This document shows, piece after piece, positions 18,581 to 22,115 of a stretch of DNA of 24,000 bases. The position numbers and the translations under genes are program-made. The notes under the pieces are model-generated. The model was not told where the DNA came from. It saw nothing but the letters and a program-made list of their open reading frames with translations, and made no database searches. Every line of letters starts with the position of its first letter. Position 1 is the first letter of the stretch. The stretch comes from Candidatus Binataceae bacterium (GTDB lineage Bacteria; Desulfobacterota; Binatia; Binatales; Binataceae), in NCBI GenBank assembly GCA_052145175.1, contig JBKQPD010000259.1, positions 25,972 through 49,971 of the forward strand, in the 5' to 3' direction.

Positions 18581-19207
18581 TTAATCAGGTTTGCTGGACG
18601 CGAGGGTCAGCGGCGCCGCGCGCAGCGCCTCGGCGGCCAGGGTCCGGGCCTGAAAAAGACAATAGACCACTGCGACGATCAGAATGATCGCGGCCACGGT
18701 CAGCGGCGCGACCAGCGGATGCCACCAGGCGCCGACTTCCAAATCAAAATGAACGCGATAGACCACCGGGACCGTGCCGATCGTCAGCATCGCGCTGTAC
18801 GCGCCGCTCGCGAGGTCGGTCTGGACGTCGATTACGCCTGACGGATAACGTCGCGCGGGAATCGAGACGCGCCGCGTTCCACCGTCCTGCGCGATTTCGA
18901 CCGCGACCGGCGCATTCGTTAGATCGCTCCCGACCAGATCGAAGACCAGCAACGTCCGGCCACCCTGGGGAACGCTGCCGCAGTATTCGGCGAAGCGATT
19001 GAACTCGGGCTGATAAGCGGAAAAATGTACGTAATTGTTCAGCCCGGCCCATTGGGCGCAGGGGTCATAGTCCAGCCCCGGACCGCCACCGTGAGCCCAG
19101 ACCTGACGCGGGAGGATCGCCGTCGCGATCGCGATTAACATTGCCGCCGTGACCAGCGGACGGAGGCGGCGGCATGTGCGCGGCTTGCGGTGATTGCGCT
19201 TCGTCAT
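18581..19207 (-). CDS. Fourth gene of the CuMMO operon: secreted, C-terminally membrane-anchored protein (PmoD/AmoD-like architecture; homology unverified)
   Basis: The ATG at 19207 shares its A with the pmoB TGA (TGATG). It encodes MTKRNHRKPRTCRRLRPLVTAAMLIAIATAILPRQVWA|HGGGPG..., with predicted cleavage leaving an N-terminal His. A beta-rich domain of about 130 aa with two Cys follows, then a C-terminal TM helix (LVAPLTVAAIILIVAVVYCLF). The 52-aa upstream extension in the track would overlap pmoB. Confidence 0.7.
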   Translation of the reverse strand: MTKRNHRKPRTCRRLRPLVTAAMLIAIATAILPRQVWAHGGGPGLDYDPCAQWAGLNNYVHFSAYQPEFNRFAEYCGSVPQGGRTLLVFDLVGSDLTNAPVAVEIAQDGGTRRVSIPARRYPSGVIDVQTDLASGAYSAMLTIGTVPVVYRVHFDLEVGAWWHPLVAPLTVAAIILIVAVVYCLFQARTLAAEALRAAPLTLASSKPD

Positions 19208-20469
19208 CACAACTCGCCCACCAGATGGCCGGTGAAGGTCGGCACGATCGAGCTGCTGAACTCGACGATCGAACGCTTGCCGGCCGGATCGAAGAACATG
19301 AAAAGGCCGCCGATCCGGCTGGTCGGATCGCTCATCAGCGCGGTCAGCCGATCGGTCTCCCACACGGGGCTGGTCGCCTCGAGATACATCTCGATACTTT
19401 CGCCGGCCGCGATCGGACGGTTTGGCTGCACGAGCAGTCCGGCCGGCGCCAGCAGATCCGGCGGATAGTCGGGATCGGCGCGGGAGACGCTGGCGTTCAG
19501 GAAGCGCAGATTCGCCGTCGTGAACTCGCCCAGCCGGACCGGTTGCGCACCGTGATTGGTCACCCGCAGATGGAACTGGACCGTGCGCCCGGGTACGAGG
19601 TAGGTCACCGTTTCGGGCTCGATCGTGACGCCAGCTGGCGGCTCGTCGAGCGCCGGAACCTTGGTCTGATGGGACTGCAGGGGAATCGTCACCGGGTTGG
19701 CGACGTTGGTAACGGCAAACGCGACAATCGCTGTTACCAAGGTTGCCGCGAGCATCACCGCCGCCATCATGCGATCACCGCGCGTGATCAGCCGGTCGCC
19801 CTCGCCCGCCTGCACCGCCGCGTAACGCGGCATCAGCAGCGGCTTGCGGATCCAGTAGCCCAGCCAGACGAGCGCGAGCGCAACCCACACGAGATGCCAT
19901 CCGATCACGATCCGCAGGCCGTAACTCGCCAGGTTGAGCCGCCGGCCGGTCAGCGTCGTGACCCAGTCGTCGAAGCTCGCCGGATCGCCCACCACGGTCA
20001 CCCACTGGCCGGGTCCGAGAATCGCGCCCGCGTCGAGCACGTCAAGCATCGGATGGACGTGATAGCGGCCCGGCAGACGTCCACGCAGCACGATGCGGTA
20101 GGCGTAGTCGCCGCCCAGCTGCAGGGCCATCGAGGAAACCCCGTTTACCCCGTTGACCTCGCTCTCCGCGCGCGTAAAGACCGGGCCGGGTACGCCCACG
20201 TTGAGAAAGGTCAAGGTTGTGGGCGAGGGAATTTCGAGCGGCCAGCTCCCCATGATATGAAAGCGGCCGGTGACCACCAGCTCCTGATTGACGCTGACCC
20301 GCTGCGACGACCAGGTCGTGTCATACCATTGGATCGTCGAGAGCCGCAGCGAGGGTTCCTGCGCGCGTTCGCCGTGGGCGTATGCGATCGCCGGCAGCAG
20401 CATCGCGCAAACCAGGATGAGCAGCGCGCGACGCGCGGCGGCCCGGCAAGTTGTGCATGAGCGAATCAT
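19207..20469 (-). CDS. pmoB: Copper membrane monooxygenase subunit B (PmoB/AmoB-type)
   Basis: 420 aa. The signal peptide ends AYA|HGERAQEP, giving an N-terminal His. Other motifs: GRYHVHPML (His137/His139 context), two central TM helices, VTIPLQ, and RLGEFTTANLRFL plus a C-terminal cupredoxin region. It is colinear with M. capsulatus PmoB as I remember it. Confidence 0.93.
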   Translation of the reverse strand: MIRSCTTCRAAARRALLILVCAMLLPAIAYAHGERAQEPSLRLSTIQWYDTTWSSQRVSVNQELVVTGRFHIMGSWPLEIPSPTTLTFLNVGVPGPVFTRAESEVNGVNGVSSMALQLGGDYAYRIVLRGRLPGRYHVHPMLDVLDAGAILGPGQWVTVVGDPASFDDWVTTLTGRRLNLASYGLRIVIGWHLVWVALALVWLGYWIRKPLLMPRYAAVQAGEGDRLITRGDRMMAAVMLAATLVTAIVAFAVTNVANPVTIPLQSHQTKVPALDEPPAGVTIEPETVTYLVPGRTVQFHLRVTNHGAQPVRLGEFTTANLRFLNASVSRADPDYPPDLLAPAGLLVQPNRPIAAGESIEMYLEATSPVWETDRLTALMSDPTSRIGGLFMFFDPAGKRSIVEFSSSIVPTFTGHLVGEL

Positions 20470-20500
20470 TGGTATCGGCGCAACCTTCCGGCGCGTCAGC

Positions 20501-21265
20501 TCAAATCTTCTTGAACCACGAGAACTGGCTTTTCACGAACAGCCAGCCGACGCCGACAAAGACCATATAGACGACGATCGACATGAAACCGGCAAAGGCG
20601 ACTGAGAGGTAGACGGGGTCCTGACCGAACGTCCGCAGCGTCCCCCGATTGATGATCCTGATGTACTCGGGCGTGCCGGTCCGGATGTAATGAAAGCCCT
20701 GCAGATCCGCGAGCGACATCAAGGCGCCGTGGAGATTCACCGGGGCGAGAAACGGCGCGATCAACGGCCAGTTGGCGAGGTAGAAGACCACCCCCCACAG
20801 GAAGCCCCCGACGATTCCCGCGATGAGAATACTGTCGGTCAGGAGCAACGTCGTATCGAGGGCGAGCCCGCACGGAATCAGGGTCGCCGGCCAGATGAAA
20901 TTCAGCGGAAAGTAGGCCCAGCCATGCATGTTAAGGACGCGATTCAGCCATTCGGCGGCGACCAGGCTGAACGTCAGGAAAGTCGCGGCGAAGGGCAGGC
21001 GGAAGCGCGACCAGAAGATAAATAGGATCGCCGACGGCATCGCGATTTCCACCACCGGCGTGAAAGAAAGCCACCAGCGGCTGTCTTTCCAGTCGTCCCA
21101 GAAATCCCAGTCGCCCACCGTCAGCATCGTGGCGACGTGGTAGAGCCCCATGAAGAGGAAGAACAACAGGATCGCGACGACCAGATCGAAGCGGCGATAG
21201 ACGCGATTCCGTTCTTCGGGCGTGACGGTTGCCGGCGCGGTCCGCGCGCGAAGAGAAGCCGCCAT
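20501..21265 (-). CDS. pmoA: Copper membrane monooxygenase subunit A (PmoA/AmoA-type)
   Basis: Motifs YHVATMLTVGDWDFWDDWKD, NWPLIAP and IRTGTPEYIRIINRGTLRTFG match the PmoA/AmoA hallmarks. The ATG at 21265 is preceded by GAGG 7 nt upstream. The track start at 21268 is GTG. Confidence 0.95.
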   Translation of the reverse strand: MAASLRARTAPATVTPEERNRVYRRFDLVVAILLFFLFMGLYHVATMLTVGDWDFWDDWKDSRWWLSFTPVVEIAMPSAILFIFWSRFRLPFAATFLTFSLVAAEWLNRVLNMHGWAYFPLNFIWPATLIPCGLALDTTLLLTDSILIAGIVGGFLWGVVFYLANWPLIAPFLAPVNLHGALMSLADLQGFHYIRTGTPEYIRIINRGTLRTFGQDPVYLSVAFAGFMSIVVYMVFVGVGWLFVKSQFSWFKKI

Positions 21266-21281
21266 CACGAGACCTCGCGCG

Positions 21282-22115
21282 TCAGGAAGCTTCGCGCTCG
21301 AAATCCAGCGCCGGGTCGTGGGCGGGACCGTCGGTCCCCTCGTAAGTCTGCGCGCGGCCCGTCGTCAGCTCATGGATATAATCGCAGACCTGCATCAGGA
21401 GTCCGCCCAAGCCCAGCCCGGCCCATGCGAAAATCACGAACCACCAGTGGACCGGCGCGGCGAACCGCTCTTCGAGAATCCAGAAACTGTGTGCCCATTC
21501 GTTGAACGCCACCACTGGCAGCAACATGAAGGGTCCCGCGACCGCGATCACCCACGGGAGCGAGTGGCGCGCGCCGAAACGCGGCAGCCGGGTCATCCCG
21601 TACAGGTACGACGTGATCCCGAGAATGATGTAGACCGGAAAAGCCCAGTAGAAAAGGATGATATGGCTGGGGGTGAACGACGTATCGCGCACCACCGTCT
21701 GATGCCAGCTCGCGTCTTCCTCGGCAAAGAAGCTGGCCGCCCAGAAGACCGCAAAAACGTAGAGAAAGATCAGGCCAATGAAAACGCCCAGCCGCCGGAG
21801 CTCCTCGGTCGCTTCAACCCGGCTCAGATCCCGGGGGCGCGAAAACCAGACGTAGCCCCAGATACCGGCGGCGGCAACGGCTTCGACGGCAAACTGACTG
21901 AACAGCAGGTTCATCCAGTACTTCTGGAATTCGGGCGAGGTCGAATCGAGACCCATGCTCCACGCGTACTGTTGCTGATAGAGGCGCGCCGCCACCATCA
22001 GCTTGGCGATTATGCCGCATCCGATCGCGATGAACGACGGATTAATCCACTGGACCTCGGTCCCGGCGCGGACCGTGGCATCGTTGACTTTCGTTGTGTT
22101 TAACAGTGTCGCCAT
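21282..22115 (-). CDS. pmoC: Copper membrane monooxygenase subunit C (PmoC/AmoC-type)
   Basis: Motifs [42 protein letters not shown] and [27 protein letters not shown] carry the Asp/His/His and Asn/His/His ligand contexts of PmoC. The ATG at 22115 is preceded by AGAGG 6 nt upstream. The track start at 22121 is TTG. Confidence 0.95.
   Translation of the reverse strand: [277 protein letters not shown]

What the first reader, a model, noticed from the sequence alone, without database searches (positions are those of the whole stretch)
19207..22115. Compact pmoCAB/amoCAB-type copper membrane monooxygenase operon from an apparently divergent lineage
Three consecutive minus-strand genes, separated by only 16-nt and 31-nt gaps, encode clear PmoC, PmoA and PmoB homologs in the bacterial C-A-B order.

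Hallmark blocks are all present:
- PmoC: [24 protein letters not shown] and [19 protein letters not shown].
- PmoA: GDWDFWDDWKD and TGTPEYIRIINRGTLRTFG.
- PmoB: AYA|HGE and GRYHVHPML.

Outside these blocks, roughly half the positions differ by eye from the Methylococcus capsulatus and Methylocystis subunits as I remember them. Nothing else in the 24 kb is a methylotrophy or nitrification marker: no methanol dehydrogenase, hao or C1-carrier genes.

This pattern fits the CuMMO lineages of uncertain substrate (methane, C2-C4 alkanes, ethylene, ammonia) found in uncultured or non-canonical hosts. Substrate and physiological role cannot be read from the sequence. Novelty cannot be asserted without a database search.
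Basis: partly seen in the sequence, partly recalled or inferred. Interest (0 to 1): 0.85.

Follow-up and report, generated by a model that had tools for sequence, protein, structure and literature searches.

The report
Binataceae copper monooxygenase operon pmoCABD
This is an intact copper membrane monooxygenase operon (the methane/ammonia/alkane-oxidising enzyme family) from an uncultured soil bacterium of the Binataceae; the lineage is already described from metagenomes, but nobody yet knows which substrate the enzyme oxidises.

Summary
Three minus-strand genes encode full-length PmoC, PmoA and PmoB, with 16-nt and 31-nt gaps, and every quoted motif is present.

A fourth gene was missed: pmoD (18581-19207), whose start overlaps the pmoB stop by one base. 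The operon is therefore pmoCABD.

All copper ligands are present, and Ka/Ks of 0.07-0.24 shows purifying selection, so this is not a relic.

It is not new:
- All four proteins are 100% identical to those on a deposited 146-kb contig.
- PmoA is in GenBank as a 'Candidatus Binataceae bacterium' protein.
- An MreB gene in the same window also points to Binataceae.

PmoA falls in a Binatia-specific clade. Identity is 75-81% to other Binataceae MAGs, 50% to Cycloclasticus, 44-47% to Methylococcales and 39% to actinobacterial HmoA. The PmoB C-terminus is 58% identical to the published 'TUSC-affiliated' Binatales type and about 33% to the bmoA-like Binatota type.

Three papers already describe these CuMMOs and leave the substrate open. 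None of 11 related loci carries a PQQ methanol dehydrogenase or hao. Sister-clade loci carry an AdhP alcohol dehydrogenase, aldehyde dehydrogenases and a MimR-like activator, so I lean towards C2-C4 hydrocarbons over methane. Interest is modest.

The parts
21282..22115 (-). pmoC (277 aa from ATG; an in-frame TTG lies two codons upstream at 22121). It carries the CuC ligands D134/H138/H151 and the CuD ligands N205/H209/H223.
   Evidence: Pfam AmoC 8e-85. PDB PmoC alignments show the ligands conserved. Ka/Ks is 0.07-0.13.
20501..21265 (-). pmoA (254 aa), starting 16 nt after the pmoC stop.
   Evidence: Pfam AMO 2e-84. Bit scores against solved structures are 262 for M. capsulatus PmoA, 218 for alpha-type pMMO and 200-205 for AMO. 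Ka/Ks is 0.10-0.15. The protein is 100% identical to the one on L087, and its 90%-identity cluster includes GenBank MGO9267780.1.
19207..20469 (-). pmoB (420 aa), starting 31 nt after the pmoA stop. Signal peptide cleavage at AYA|HGE would make His32 the mature N-terminus. The CuB ligands are H32, H137 and H139. The equivalent of M. capsulatus His48 is Gln47.
   Evidence: Pfam Monooxygenase_B 1e-132. Alignment to 3RGB/1YEW. Ka/Ks is 0.12-0.24.
18581..19207 (-). pmoD (208 aa). [quoted passage not shown] Its ATG shares one base with the pmoB stop codon (TGATG).
   Evidence: phmmer to PDB 6CPD PmoD, E=1.1e-6. Junction sequence. Alignment of 9 orthologues found directly downstream of pmoB. Ka/Ks is 0.15-0.22.
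22116..22281 (-). Intergenic region of about 166 nt between pmoC and the divergent NHL-repeat gene. A possible sigma-70-like promoter, TTGCCT-17 nt-TATAAG, lies at about 22219-22191 on the minus strand, with a GAGG ribosome-binding site before the start codon.
   Evidence: Read from the sequence. The hexamers recur in L082 and L002 only, and the consensus scan did not flag them. This is an inference and it is weak.
17683..18453 (-). Metallo-beta-lactamase-fold hydrolase of the AttM-like lactonase family, on the same strand 127 nt downstream of pmoD. It may be co-transcribed. It is a neighbour only in the closest relatives.
   Evidence: Pfam Lactamase_B 2e-24. NCBIfam AttM family scores 178 bits, below the cutoff of 390. 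It is 92% identical in L001 and L002 and absent from L004, L093 and L095.

Best explanation
The region is a functional, chromosomal pmoCABD operon of an uncultured Binataceae bacterium (class Binatia). It encodes a copper membrane monooxygenase of the Binatia-specific, 'TUSC-affiliated' radiation.

Shown:
- Four intact, tightly packed genes under purifying selection.
- Complete ligand sets for the CuB, CuC and CuD copper sites.
- An N-terminal histidine on mature PmoB.
- A PmoD copper-protein homologue whose start codon overlaps the pmoB stop codon, which suggests translational coupling.
- Physical linkage to Binataceae-type housekeeping genes.

Inferred from what is established for pMMO, AMO and HMO: PmoA, PmoB and PmoC form a membrane trimer of protomers. 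This complex uses O2 and quinol-derived electrons at a copper site in or near PmoC to hydroxylate a small hydrophobic substrate. PmoD, anchored by one helix, acts as a periplasmic copper-binding helper.

My commitment on substrate: the physiological substrate is more likely a short-chain (C2-C4) hydrocarbon, with methane and ammonia at best co-oxidised, than methane as a growth substrate. Identity as a functional Binataceae CuMMO is about 0.9. The C2-C4 call is about 0.45, and that is the confidence given for this explanation.
For: Identity and integrity:
- Family matches and ligands.
- Ka/Ks 0.07-0.24 against four relatives.

Host:
- The nearest genomes are Ca. Binataceae MAGs at 75-81% PmoA identity.
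- The window is 99.92% identical in DNA to a 146-kb NCBI contig, and the four proteins are 100% identical.
- The window's MreB falls at 93% identity with a cluster that contains a Binataceae protein.

Clade:
- NJ tree.
- The PmoB C-terminus is 58% identical to Murphy's TUSC-affiliated Binatales genome and about 33% to the bmoA-like Binatota type.

Substrate lean:
- None of 11 annotated loci of the Binatia clade has a PQQ methanol dehydrogenase or hao next to the operon.
- Three sister-clade loci keep an orthologous MimR_N sigma-54 activator. MimR controls a propane/acetone monooxygenase in mycobacteria; that is background knowledge.
- Two of those loci carry an AdhP-type Zn alcohol dehydrogenase, which passes the NCBIfam equivalog cutoff (353 vs 344 bits) and scores only 125 bits against class III formaldehyde dehydrogenase.
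- One locus adds an aldehyde dehydrogenase and a Mo aldehyde oxidoreductase. Another has a GMC oxidoreductase and an epoxide hydrolase.
- The regulator next to hmoCAB in Mycolicibacterium NBB4 shares 32% identity over 199 aa with the MimR-like protein.
- The 2026 preprint places TUSC and 'putative pmoA Binatales' among hydrocarbon monooxygenases in its pmoA tree, and finds the methane-processing modules incomplete or missing in the TUSC-encoding (JACPRU01) MAGs.
Against: - No alcohol or aldehyde dehydrogenase and no regulator lies near the operon in the window's own subclade. Its neighbours (lactonase-like MBL, LLM oxidoreductase, CoA-transferase, acyl-CoA dehydrogenase, ligase) are syntenic only in close relatives, so the context argument is borrowed from a sister clade with about 62% PmoA identity.
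- PmoA is closer to Methylococcales PmoA (44-47%) than to proven actinobacterial alkane enzymes (39%).
- Murphy et al. report methanol- and formaldehyde-oxidation and assimilation genes in TUSC-affiliated Binatota, and cite methane enrichment of TUSC in microcosms.
- A GFA-family protein and a GST recur near the sister-clade operons and could point to formaldehyde handling.
- Deep nodes of my tree are unsupported.
- No experiment exists for any member.
Confidence: 0.45

Rival explanations
1. It is a true particulate methane monooxygenase. The Binataceae host is a methanotroph, possibly a high-affinity atmospheric methane oxidiser as hypothesised for the TUSC/Cluster 2 pmoA group.
For: - All pMMO copper ligands are present.
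- Among solved structures the best match is M. capsulatus pMMO.
- The PmoB C-terminus is closest to the TUSC-affiliated Binatales type.
- Murphy et al. report downstream C1 genes in TUSC-type Binatota and cite methane enrichment of TUSC.
- GFA and GST genes lie near the sister-clade operons.
Against: - PmoA lies outside every verified pmoA clade.
- It falls below the TIGR pMMO/AMO equivalog cutoffs for all three subunits.
- No methanol dehydrogenase lies in 31 kb around the operon or in 10 related loci.
- The 2026 preprint finds methanol-oxidation and assimilation modules incomplete or missing in the TUSC-encoding (JACPRU01) MAGs, states that whether TUSC encodes a methane-specific enzyme remains uncertain, and places the Binatales clade among hydrocarbon monooxygenases.
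- The 2024 mSystems paper calls methylotrophy potential 'patchy' in Binataceae.
Confidence: 0.3
2. It oxidises a different class of substrate, neither methane, ammonia nor C2-C4 alkanes. Candidates are a cyclic or oxygenated hydrocarbon whose products feed lactone hydrolysis and dicarboxylyl/acyl-CoA metabolism encoded next to the operon.
For: In the window and its two closest relatives the operon is flanked by these genes:
- an AttM-like lactonase-fold protein;
- an SGL/NHL beta-propeller protein;
- an LLM-class oxidoreductase;
- a family III CoA-transferase;
- a pimC-like acyl-CoA dehydrogenase;
- a FadD7-like ligase.

Paralogous LLM and CoA-transferase genes directly flank pmoCABD in L004 and L100.
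Against: - The neighbours in the two synteny groups are paralogues (25-31% identity), not orthologues.
- All the NCBIfam matches are below their cutoffs.
- In my experience these families are abundant in Binatia genomes, so adjacency may be chance.
- No CuMMO is known to act on such substrates.
Confidence: 0.15
3. It is an ammonia monooxygenase used for nitrification.
For: - The best NCBIfam models are AmoA/B/C_BACT, and AmoB_BACT is above its cutoff.
- Some relatives are named AmoA in GenBank.
Against: - The same models name the pxmABC genes of a methanotroph plasmid, so they are generic for bacterial CuMMOs.
- Solved AMO subunits score lower than pMMO subunits.
- No hao or cytochrome c554/cM552 genes lie in the window or the related loci.
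- Binatia are not known nitrifiers.
Confidence: 0.04
4. It is a decaying relic, or a mis-assembled or mis-binned fragment that does not belong to this host.
For: - The last 450 nt of the window are a fold-back relative to all other assemblies.
- Mis-binning of a TUSC pmoCAB contig has been reported for 'Ca. Methylotropicum kingii'.
Against: - The ORFs are intact, all ligands are present and Ka/Ks is far below 1.
- The same operon with the same flanks appears in six independent assemblies.
- mreBCD-mrdA and the operon sit on one 146-kb contig, and MreB points to Binataceae.
- GC content is uniform across the window.
- The fold-back begins 1.4 kb outside the operon.
Confidence: 0.02

Closest known systems
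CuMMO operons of Ca. Binatia/Binatota MAGs, 'TUSC-affiliated' type (Murphy et al. 2021, PMC8262859; also PMC11264602 and bioRxiv 10.64898/2026.02.02.703227)
   Same: - Same host family, same C-A-B(-D) organisation and same conserved His33/137/139 ligands.
- The PmoB C-terminus clearly resembles genome 3300027968_51. For example, TYLVPGR..QF.L.VTN....V.LGEFTTANLRF and GKRS.VEFS..I.PTFTG are shared.
- PmoA is 75-81% identical to three Binataceae species representatives.
- Identical proteins are already in GenBank.
   Different: - It is only 58% identical to the published TUSC-affiliated genome over the 142 aligned PmoB C-terminal residues. That is the same distance as to the Ca. Binatus sister subclade (56-59%). 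It is therefore probably a separate branch, not TUSC in the strict sense.
- It lacks the SCO1 gene that follows pmoD in the sister subclade.
Particulate methane monooxygenase of Methylococcus capsulatus Bath and other Methylococcales (PDB 3RGB, 7S4H and others)
   Same: Same three-subunit architecture and gene order, same CuB, CuC and CuD ligands, and an N-terminal His on PmoB. It is the best-scoring solved structure for PmoA and PmoB.
   Different: - Identity is 44-47% for PmoA, 39-43% for PmoB and 43-46% for PmoC.
- It lies outside the pmoA clade and below the TIGR equivalog cutoffs.
- PmoB His48 is Gln and PmoA His40 is Ala.
- pmoD is fused into the operon here but is not adjacent in the Methylococcales loci examined.
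- No methanol dehydrogenase lies nearby.
Cycloclasticus-type CuMMO (marine hydrocarbon-seep and symbiont Cycloclasticus; linked to short-chain alkane oxidation in the literature, which I recall rather than tested)
   Same: It is the highest-identity named non-Binatia relative: 50% PmoA, 49% PmoC, 41% PmoB. It also has a pmoD homologue directly after pmoB.
   Different: There is no supported sister relationship in the tree. PmoD is only 20-25% identical and lacks the His61 equivalent.
Actinobacterial hydrocarbon/butane monooxygenase HmoCAB/BmoCAB (Mycolicibacterium chubuense NBB4, Rhodococcus) and the bmoA-like Binatota type
   Same: Same superfamily and C-A-B order. The regulator next to the NBB4 operon resembles the MimR-like activators beside the sister-clade Binatus operons.
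   Different: Identity is only 38-40% for PmoA, 30-33% for PmoB and 37-39% for PmoC. The Binatota bmoA-like PmoB C-terminus is about 33% identical. There is no pmoD after hmoB.
PmoD/AmoD copper protein (Methylocystis sp. Rockwell, PDB 6CPD; Fisher et al. 2018, PMC6189053)
   Same: A signal peptide, a periplasmic domain with the two invariant cysteines, a C-terminal transmembrane helix, and a position in an extended pmo operon.
   Different: The Cx7MxH motif needed for the CuA-like site is not kept. The Met is replaced by Tyr59 and the spacing is one residue longer, although His61 is retained. By the published classification it belongs to the CxnC-only class, which binds copper without forming CuA.

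Membership tests
Copper membrane monooxygenase (CuMMO: pMMO/AMO/HMO superfamily) | Three subunits matching the AmoC, AMO and Monooxygenase_B profiles over essentially their full length | tested here: met
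   Pfam 8e-85, 2e-84 and 1e-132, with profile coverage 4-242/245, 3-236/238 and 1-380/380.
Copper membrane monooxygenase (CuMMO: pMMO/AMO/HMO superfamily) | Contiguous bacterial C-A-B gene order on one strand | tested here: met
   ORF coordinates and 16-nt and 31-nt gaps.
Copper membrane monooxygenase (CuMMO: pMMO/AMO/HMO superfamily) | Copper ligands: PmoB His33/His137/His139 (CuB); PmoC Asp156/His160/His173 (CuC) and Asn227/His231/His245 (CuD), in M. capsulatus numbering | tested here: met
   Window residues are PmoB H32/H137/H139 and PmoC D134/H138/H151 and N205/H209/H223, aligned to solved structures.
Copper membrane monooxygenase (CuMMO: pMMO/AMO/HMO superfamily) | O2-dependent hydroxylation activity | not testable with these tools
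   Requires expression or activity assays. Purifying selection shows only that the genes are maintained.
Methanotroph pMMO (verified pmoCAB) | PmoA placed inside a clade of verified methanotroph PmoA | tested here: not met
   The NJ tree puts it in a separate Binatia clade. Identity to Methylococcales is 44-47%, and the alpha-type pMMO scores only 218 bits.
Methanotroph pMMO (verified pmoCAB) | Scores above the TIGR03078/03080/03079 equivalog cutoffs | tested here: not met
   268.2 vs 280.6, 270.4 vs 318.15 and 390.1 vs 394.9.
Methanotroph pMMO (verified pmoCAB) | Genome encodes methanol dehydrogenase plus formaldehyde oxidation and assimilation | tested here: inconclusive
   None lies in the 24-kb window plus 7 kb more of L087, or in the 10 related loci. 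The whole genome could not be searched.
Nitrifier ammonia monooxygenase | Placement with nitrifier AmoCAB, and hao/cytochrome partner genes present | tested here: not met
   Solved AMO subunits score below pMMO subunits. No hao is present in the window or the related loci. The NCBIfam Amo*_BACT models also name pxmABC of a methanotroph, so they do not discriminate.
Binatia 'TUSC-affiliated' CuMMO radiation (Murphy 2021) | Encoded by a Binatia/Binataceae genome | tested here: met
   The nearest genomes are Binataceae. GenBank names the PmoA as Binataceae. MreB on the same contig points the same way.
Binatia 'TUSC-affiliated' CuMMO radiation (Murphy 2021) | Sequence groups with the published TUSC-affiliated Binatales PmoB rather than the bmoA/SAR324-like Binatota PmoB | tested here: met
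   58% vs about 33% identity over the C-terminal residues printed in Fig. S1 of PMC8262859.
TUSC / Cluster 2 pmoA in the strict sense | 86-100% amino-acid identity to the original TUSC amplicons (AJ579663, AJ868246, EU723743, KC122308), the criterion used in bioRxiv 10.64898/2026.02.02.703227 | not testable with these tools
   The amplicon sequences could not be obtained. Indirectly, 58% identity to a TUSC-affiliated genome's PmoB C-terminus argues against strict membership.
Actinobacterial HMO/BMO | Placement with actinobacterial HmoA/BmoA | tested here: not met
   38-40% PmoA and 30-33% PmoB identity, with a long branch in the tree.
PmoD/AmoD | [quoted passage not shown] | tested here: met
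   6CPD match at E=1.1e-6. Cys50 and Cys76 are invariant in 9 orthologues, with hydrophobic N- and C-terminal segments. The criteria are from PMC6189053.
PmoD/AmoD, CuA-forming subclass | Cx7MxHxnC motif | tested here: not met
   The window has C50-x8-Y59-x-H61...C76, so the Met ligand is replaced.

The most novel reading that the evidence does not exclude
The window's Binataceae subclade may encode a CuMMO with a physiological role not yet known for the family. One possibility is a high-affinity atmospheric methane oxidiser in a lineage with no cultured methanotroph. The other is an enzyme acting on a new substrate class, whose products pass to the flanking lactonase-like and acyl-CoA genes. 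Nothing in my evidence excludes either, because no member of the whole Binatia clade has been tested.
Probability: 0.2. Interest if true: 0.7.

Novelty: new member of a known kind. Interest (0 to 1): 0.3.

Why it matters
CuMMOs control three large fluxes: methane consumption, ammonia oxidation and the oxidation of gaseous alkanes.

pmoA-like genes of the TUSC/Binatia radiation are common in soils. They are routinely counted as 'methanotroph' markers, yet no member has been tested. If they are hydrocarbon monooxygenases, soil methane-sink surveys based on pmoA over-count methanotrophs. If they oxidise atmospheric methane, a whole uncultured class joins the methane sink.

This window does not settle that question. 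It does give a clean, complete pmoCABD operon that is physically linked to Binataceae housekeeping genes, which guards against the mis-binning reported for this gene group. That makes it a good template for heterologous expression. As a discovery it is ordinary, because the lineage and this very sequence are already public.

Tried and rejected
- TUSC membership by probe: I looked for the TUSC409/TUSC502 microarray probe sequences. The only paper holding those names lists no sequences.
- One literature search was wasted on 'TUSC' tumour-suppressor papers. 'Methylotropicum' gave nothing usable.
- Amplicon names: looking up members of the large PmoA clusters returned only metagenome and MAG names, with no TUSC clones.
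- Sigma-54 promoter upstream of pmoC, expected if a MimR-like activator acts here: no conserved GG-N10-GC element in the window or 8 relatives. The consensus scan found nothing on the minus strand.
- Functional linkage from synteny: the window's neighbours are conserved only in L001, L002 and L082. I therefore rejected them as strong evidence.
- A Biopython bootstrap run timed out. I replaced it with a numpy NJ tree with 100 bootstraps. Its deep nodes are unsupported, so I make no claim about the sister group of the Binatia clade.
- The MreB search returned almost no organism names. One cluster look-up rescued a Binataceae label.
- I did not run structure prediction. The alignments contain locus-derived sequences that the tool refuses, and the sequence-level matches were already decisive.

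Full report
**Observation**

- 21282-22121 (279 aa from TTG; 277 aa from the ATG at 22115).
- 20501-21268 (255 aa from GTG; 254 aa from the ATG at 21265).
- 19207-20469 (420 aa).

With the ATG starts, which are the ones called in every related contig, the intergenic gaps are 16 nt and 31 nt. All quoted peptide blocks are present. Pfam matches AmoC (8e-85), AMO (2e-84) and Monooxygenase_B (1e-132) over essentially the full profiles.

**A fourth gene**

An ORF of 208 aa (18581-19207) follows pmoB directly. Its ATG shares one base with the pmoB stop codon, reading TGATG. It has no Pfam or NCBIfam hit, but it matches the solved PmoD of Methylocystis sp. Rockwell (6CPD) at E=1.1e-6.

It has the published PmoD architecture (PMC6189053):
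- a signal peptide;
- a periplasmic domain with two cysteines, Cys50 and Cys76, invariant in nine orthologues;
- a C-terminal hydrophobic helix.

The Cx7MxH motif that forms the CuA-like site is not kept, because Tyr59 replaces the Met, while His61 is retained. An orthologue follows pmoB in every locus of the Binatia clade and in Cycloclasticus, but not in the Methylococcales or actinobacterial loci examined. The operon is therefore pmoCABD.

**Integrity**

Alignment to solved pMMO and AMO chains shows every copper ligand in place:
- PmoB H32 (the first residue after the predicted AYA|HGE cleavage), H137 and H139.
- PmoC D134/H138/H151.
- PmoC N205/H209/H223.

The equivalent of M. capsulatus PmoB His48 is Gln, and PmoA His40 is Ala. 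Nei-Gojobori Ka/Ks against four relatives is 0.07-0.15 for pmoC and pmoA, 0.12-0.24 for pmoB and 0.15-0.22 for pmoD. This is not a relic.

**Whose genes are these**

- The closest PmoA in the 5.8-billion-protein collection is 98% identical. Twenty-four clusters are 57% identical or more, nearly all 254 aa long (a few are 256 aa or truncated).
- In GTDB species representatives the best hits are three 'Candidatus Binataceae' MAGs (81, 79 and 75%). Next come a Ca. Binatus-type MAG (62%), another Microflora Danica MAG (53%), Cycloclasticus (about 50%) and many Methylococcales (44-47%).
- An exact look-up finds the window's PmoA on seven NCBI contigs, the longest 146,551 bp. The window is 99.92% identical in DNA to that contig over 13 kb, and all four Pmo proteins are 100% identical.
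- PmoA's 90%-identity cluster includes GenBank MGO9267780.1, labelled Candidatus Binataceae bacterium.

Mis-binning of such operons has been reported, so I checked a housekeeping gene in the same window. The window holds mrdA-mreDCB, and its MreB is 93% identical to a cluster that includes a Binataceae protein. GC content is even across the window. The host assignment is sound.

**Which CuMMO clade**

I built a neighbour-joining tree of 58 PmoA sequences with 100 bootstraps, rooted on actinobacterial HmoA.
- The window falls in a 21-member Binatia clade (support 61).
- That clade has two subclades. The window's subclade contains the Binataceae MAGs (support 63; the innermost group has support 98). 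The sister subclade contains 'Ca. Binatus'.
- The clade is separate from Methylococcales PmoA, PxmA, Methylomirabilota and Cycloclasticus. Deeper nodes are unsupported, so I name no sister group.
- Identity to actinobacterial HmoA is 38-40%.

NCBIfam scores fall just below the AmoC_BACT and AmoA_BACT cutoffs and below all three TIGR pMMO/AMO equivalog cutoffs.

Murphy et al. 2021 split Binatota CuMMOs into a 'TUSC cluster 2' type and an Actinobacteria/SAR324 bmoA-like type. Their Fig. S1 prints PmoB C-termini.
- The window's PmoB is 58% identical to the TUSC-affiliated genome 3300027968_51 over 142 residues.
- It is about 33% identical to the bmoA-like type.
- Over the same stretch the window is 70-87% identical to its own subclade and 56-59% to the Ca. 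Binatus subclade.

The window therefore belongs to the TUSC-affiliated Binatia radiation as a branch of its own. It is probably not TUSC in the strict sense. I could not test it against the original amplicons.

**What is already known**

Three papers describe Binataceae or Binatia pmo genes, and all leave the substrate open.
- Murphy 2021.
- An mSystems 2024 study found Binataceae MAGs with pmo, 'patchy' methylotrophy genes, and pmoA 'closer to proposed butane monooxygenases'.
- A 2026 preprint recovered 7 TUSC and 81 'putative pmoA Binatales' MAGs. It placed both groups among hydrocarbon monooxygenases, found the TUSC (JACPRU01) MAGs lacking methane-processing modules, and flagged a mis-binned TUSC operon.

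The kind is therefore known, and so is this sequence.

**Gene context and substrate**

The window contains no methanol dehydrogenase, hao or C1-carrier genes. On the pmoD side the genes are:
- an AttM-like MBL-fold hydrolase;
- a small Zn-ribbon ORF;
- an LLM-class oxidoreductase;
- a family III CoA-transferase;
- a CMD-family protein;
- a cupin;
- a pimC-like acyl-CoA dehydrogenase;
- a FadD7-like ligase.

An NHL/SGL beta-propeller gene is divergent from pmoC. All the specific NCBIfam names are below their cutoffs. This arrangement is shared only with the closest relatives, L001, L002 and L082. L004 and L100 instead have a paralogous LLM directly upstream and a paralogous CoA-transferase directly downstream.

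The Ca. Binatus subclade is more telling. Three loci with diverged sequences (L093, L098, L099) keep several genes near the operon:
- an orthologous MimR_N sigma-54 activator (46-51% identity);
- a MEDS/HTH regulator;
- an unknown 308-325-aa protein;
- SCO1 after pmoD where the contig extends that far (L093, L098), and also in L095 and the P0022 locus.

Two of them carry an AdhP-type alcohol dehydrogenase. It scores 353 bits against a cutoff of 344, and only 125 bits against class III formaldehyde dehydrogenase. L093 adds an aldehyde dehydrogenase and a Mo aldehyde oxidoreductase. Another locus has a GMC oxidoreductase and an epoxide hydrolase. The regulator beside hmoCAB in Mycolicibacterium NBB4 resembles the MimR-like protein. 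No PQQ methanol dehydrogenase lies in any of the 11 loci.

Two observations cut the other way. GFA-family and GST genes recur near the operons. Murphy et al. also report C1 modules in TUSC-type genomes.

On balance I put a C2-C4 hydrocarbon substrate at about 0.45, methane at about 0.3, another substrate class at about 0.15, ammonia at about 0.04 and an artefact or relic at about 0.02. The step from sister-clade context to this operon is inference.

**Regulation**

No conserved sigma-54 element lies upstream of pmoC. A sigma-70-like TTGCCT-17-TATAAG about 80 nt upstream recurs in L082 and L002, but it failed the consensus scan. It is weak evidence.

**Verdict**

This is a correct and careful first-stage call on a real, intact CuMMO operon, and the lineage and the exact proteins are already public. 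It is a new member of a known kind. Interest is about 0.3, and it comes entirely from the unresolved substrate of the whole Binatia clade.

Noticed in passing
window 23515-24000: The window ends in a fold-back. Positions 23551-24000 are the reverse complement of what six other assemblies have at that place. A 51-nt inverted repeat (23515-23565 / 23950-24000, 98% complementary) marks the join. This cuts the NHL/SGL beta-propeller gene (22282-23619, 445 aa) short of the 532-537 aa seen in relatives. Its last 117 codons lie on the opposite strand (23620-23973). It is probably an assembly artefact, and the far junction lies beyond the window.
   Followed up: partly
window 848-5456 (minus strand) and 5551-7548 (plus strand): A cell-shape cluster, mrdA (PBP2)-mreD-mreC-mreB, followed by a divergent PpiD/SurA-like chaperone gene. 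These housekeeping genes tie the operon physically to its host.
   Followed up: partly
window 8432-18453: A block of acyl-CoA and lactone-type genes: FadD7-like ligase, DUF6306 protein, pimC-like acyl-CoA dehydrogenase, cupin, CMD-family protein, family III CoA-transferase, LLM oxidoreductase and AttM-like MBL hydrolase. It is syntenic with L001 and L002, except that the LLM gene and two small ORFs are an insertion absent from L001.
   Followed up: partly
L093 2584-8763, L098 2433-7882, L099 2878-7634: In the Ca. Binatus sister subclade a three-gene set precedes pmoC in three diverged loci: a MimR_N sigma-54 activator, a MEDS/HTH_17 regulator and an unannotated 308-325-aa protein with an N-terminal hydrophobic segment. 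The function of the unknown protein is open.
   Followed up: partly
L093 19631-20765, L098 524-2045, L099 1026-2405: A GFA-family (glutathione-dependent formaldehyde-activating-like) gene paired with an alpha/beta hydrolase recurs within 10 kb of the sister-clade operons, and a GST is nearby in two of them. This could hint at glutathione-linked formaldehyde handling.
   Followed up: no
protein P0228 (member of the P0011 PmoA cluster): A 692-aa JGI protein annotated as subunit B clusters at 90% identity with a 254-aa PmoA. It may be a PmoA-PmoB fusion or a read-through gene call.
   Followed up: no
L084 6726-8258 and L085 6914-8449: Both actinobacterial hmoCAB plasmid loci carry an AMP-binding acyl-CoA ligase a few genes downstream of hmoB. 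The NBB4 one is 29% identical to the window's ligase at 8432-9940. This may be a recurring CuMMO-ligase association or a coincidence.
   Followed up: no
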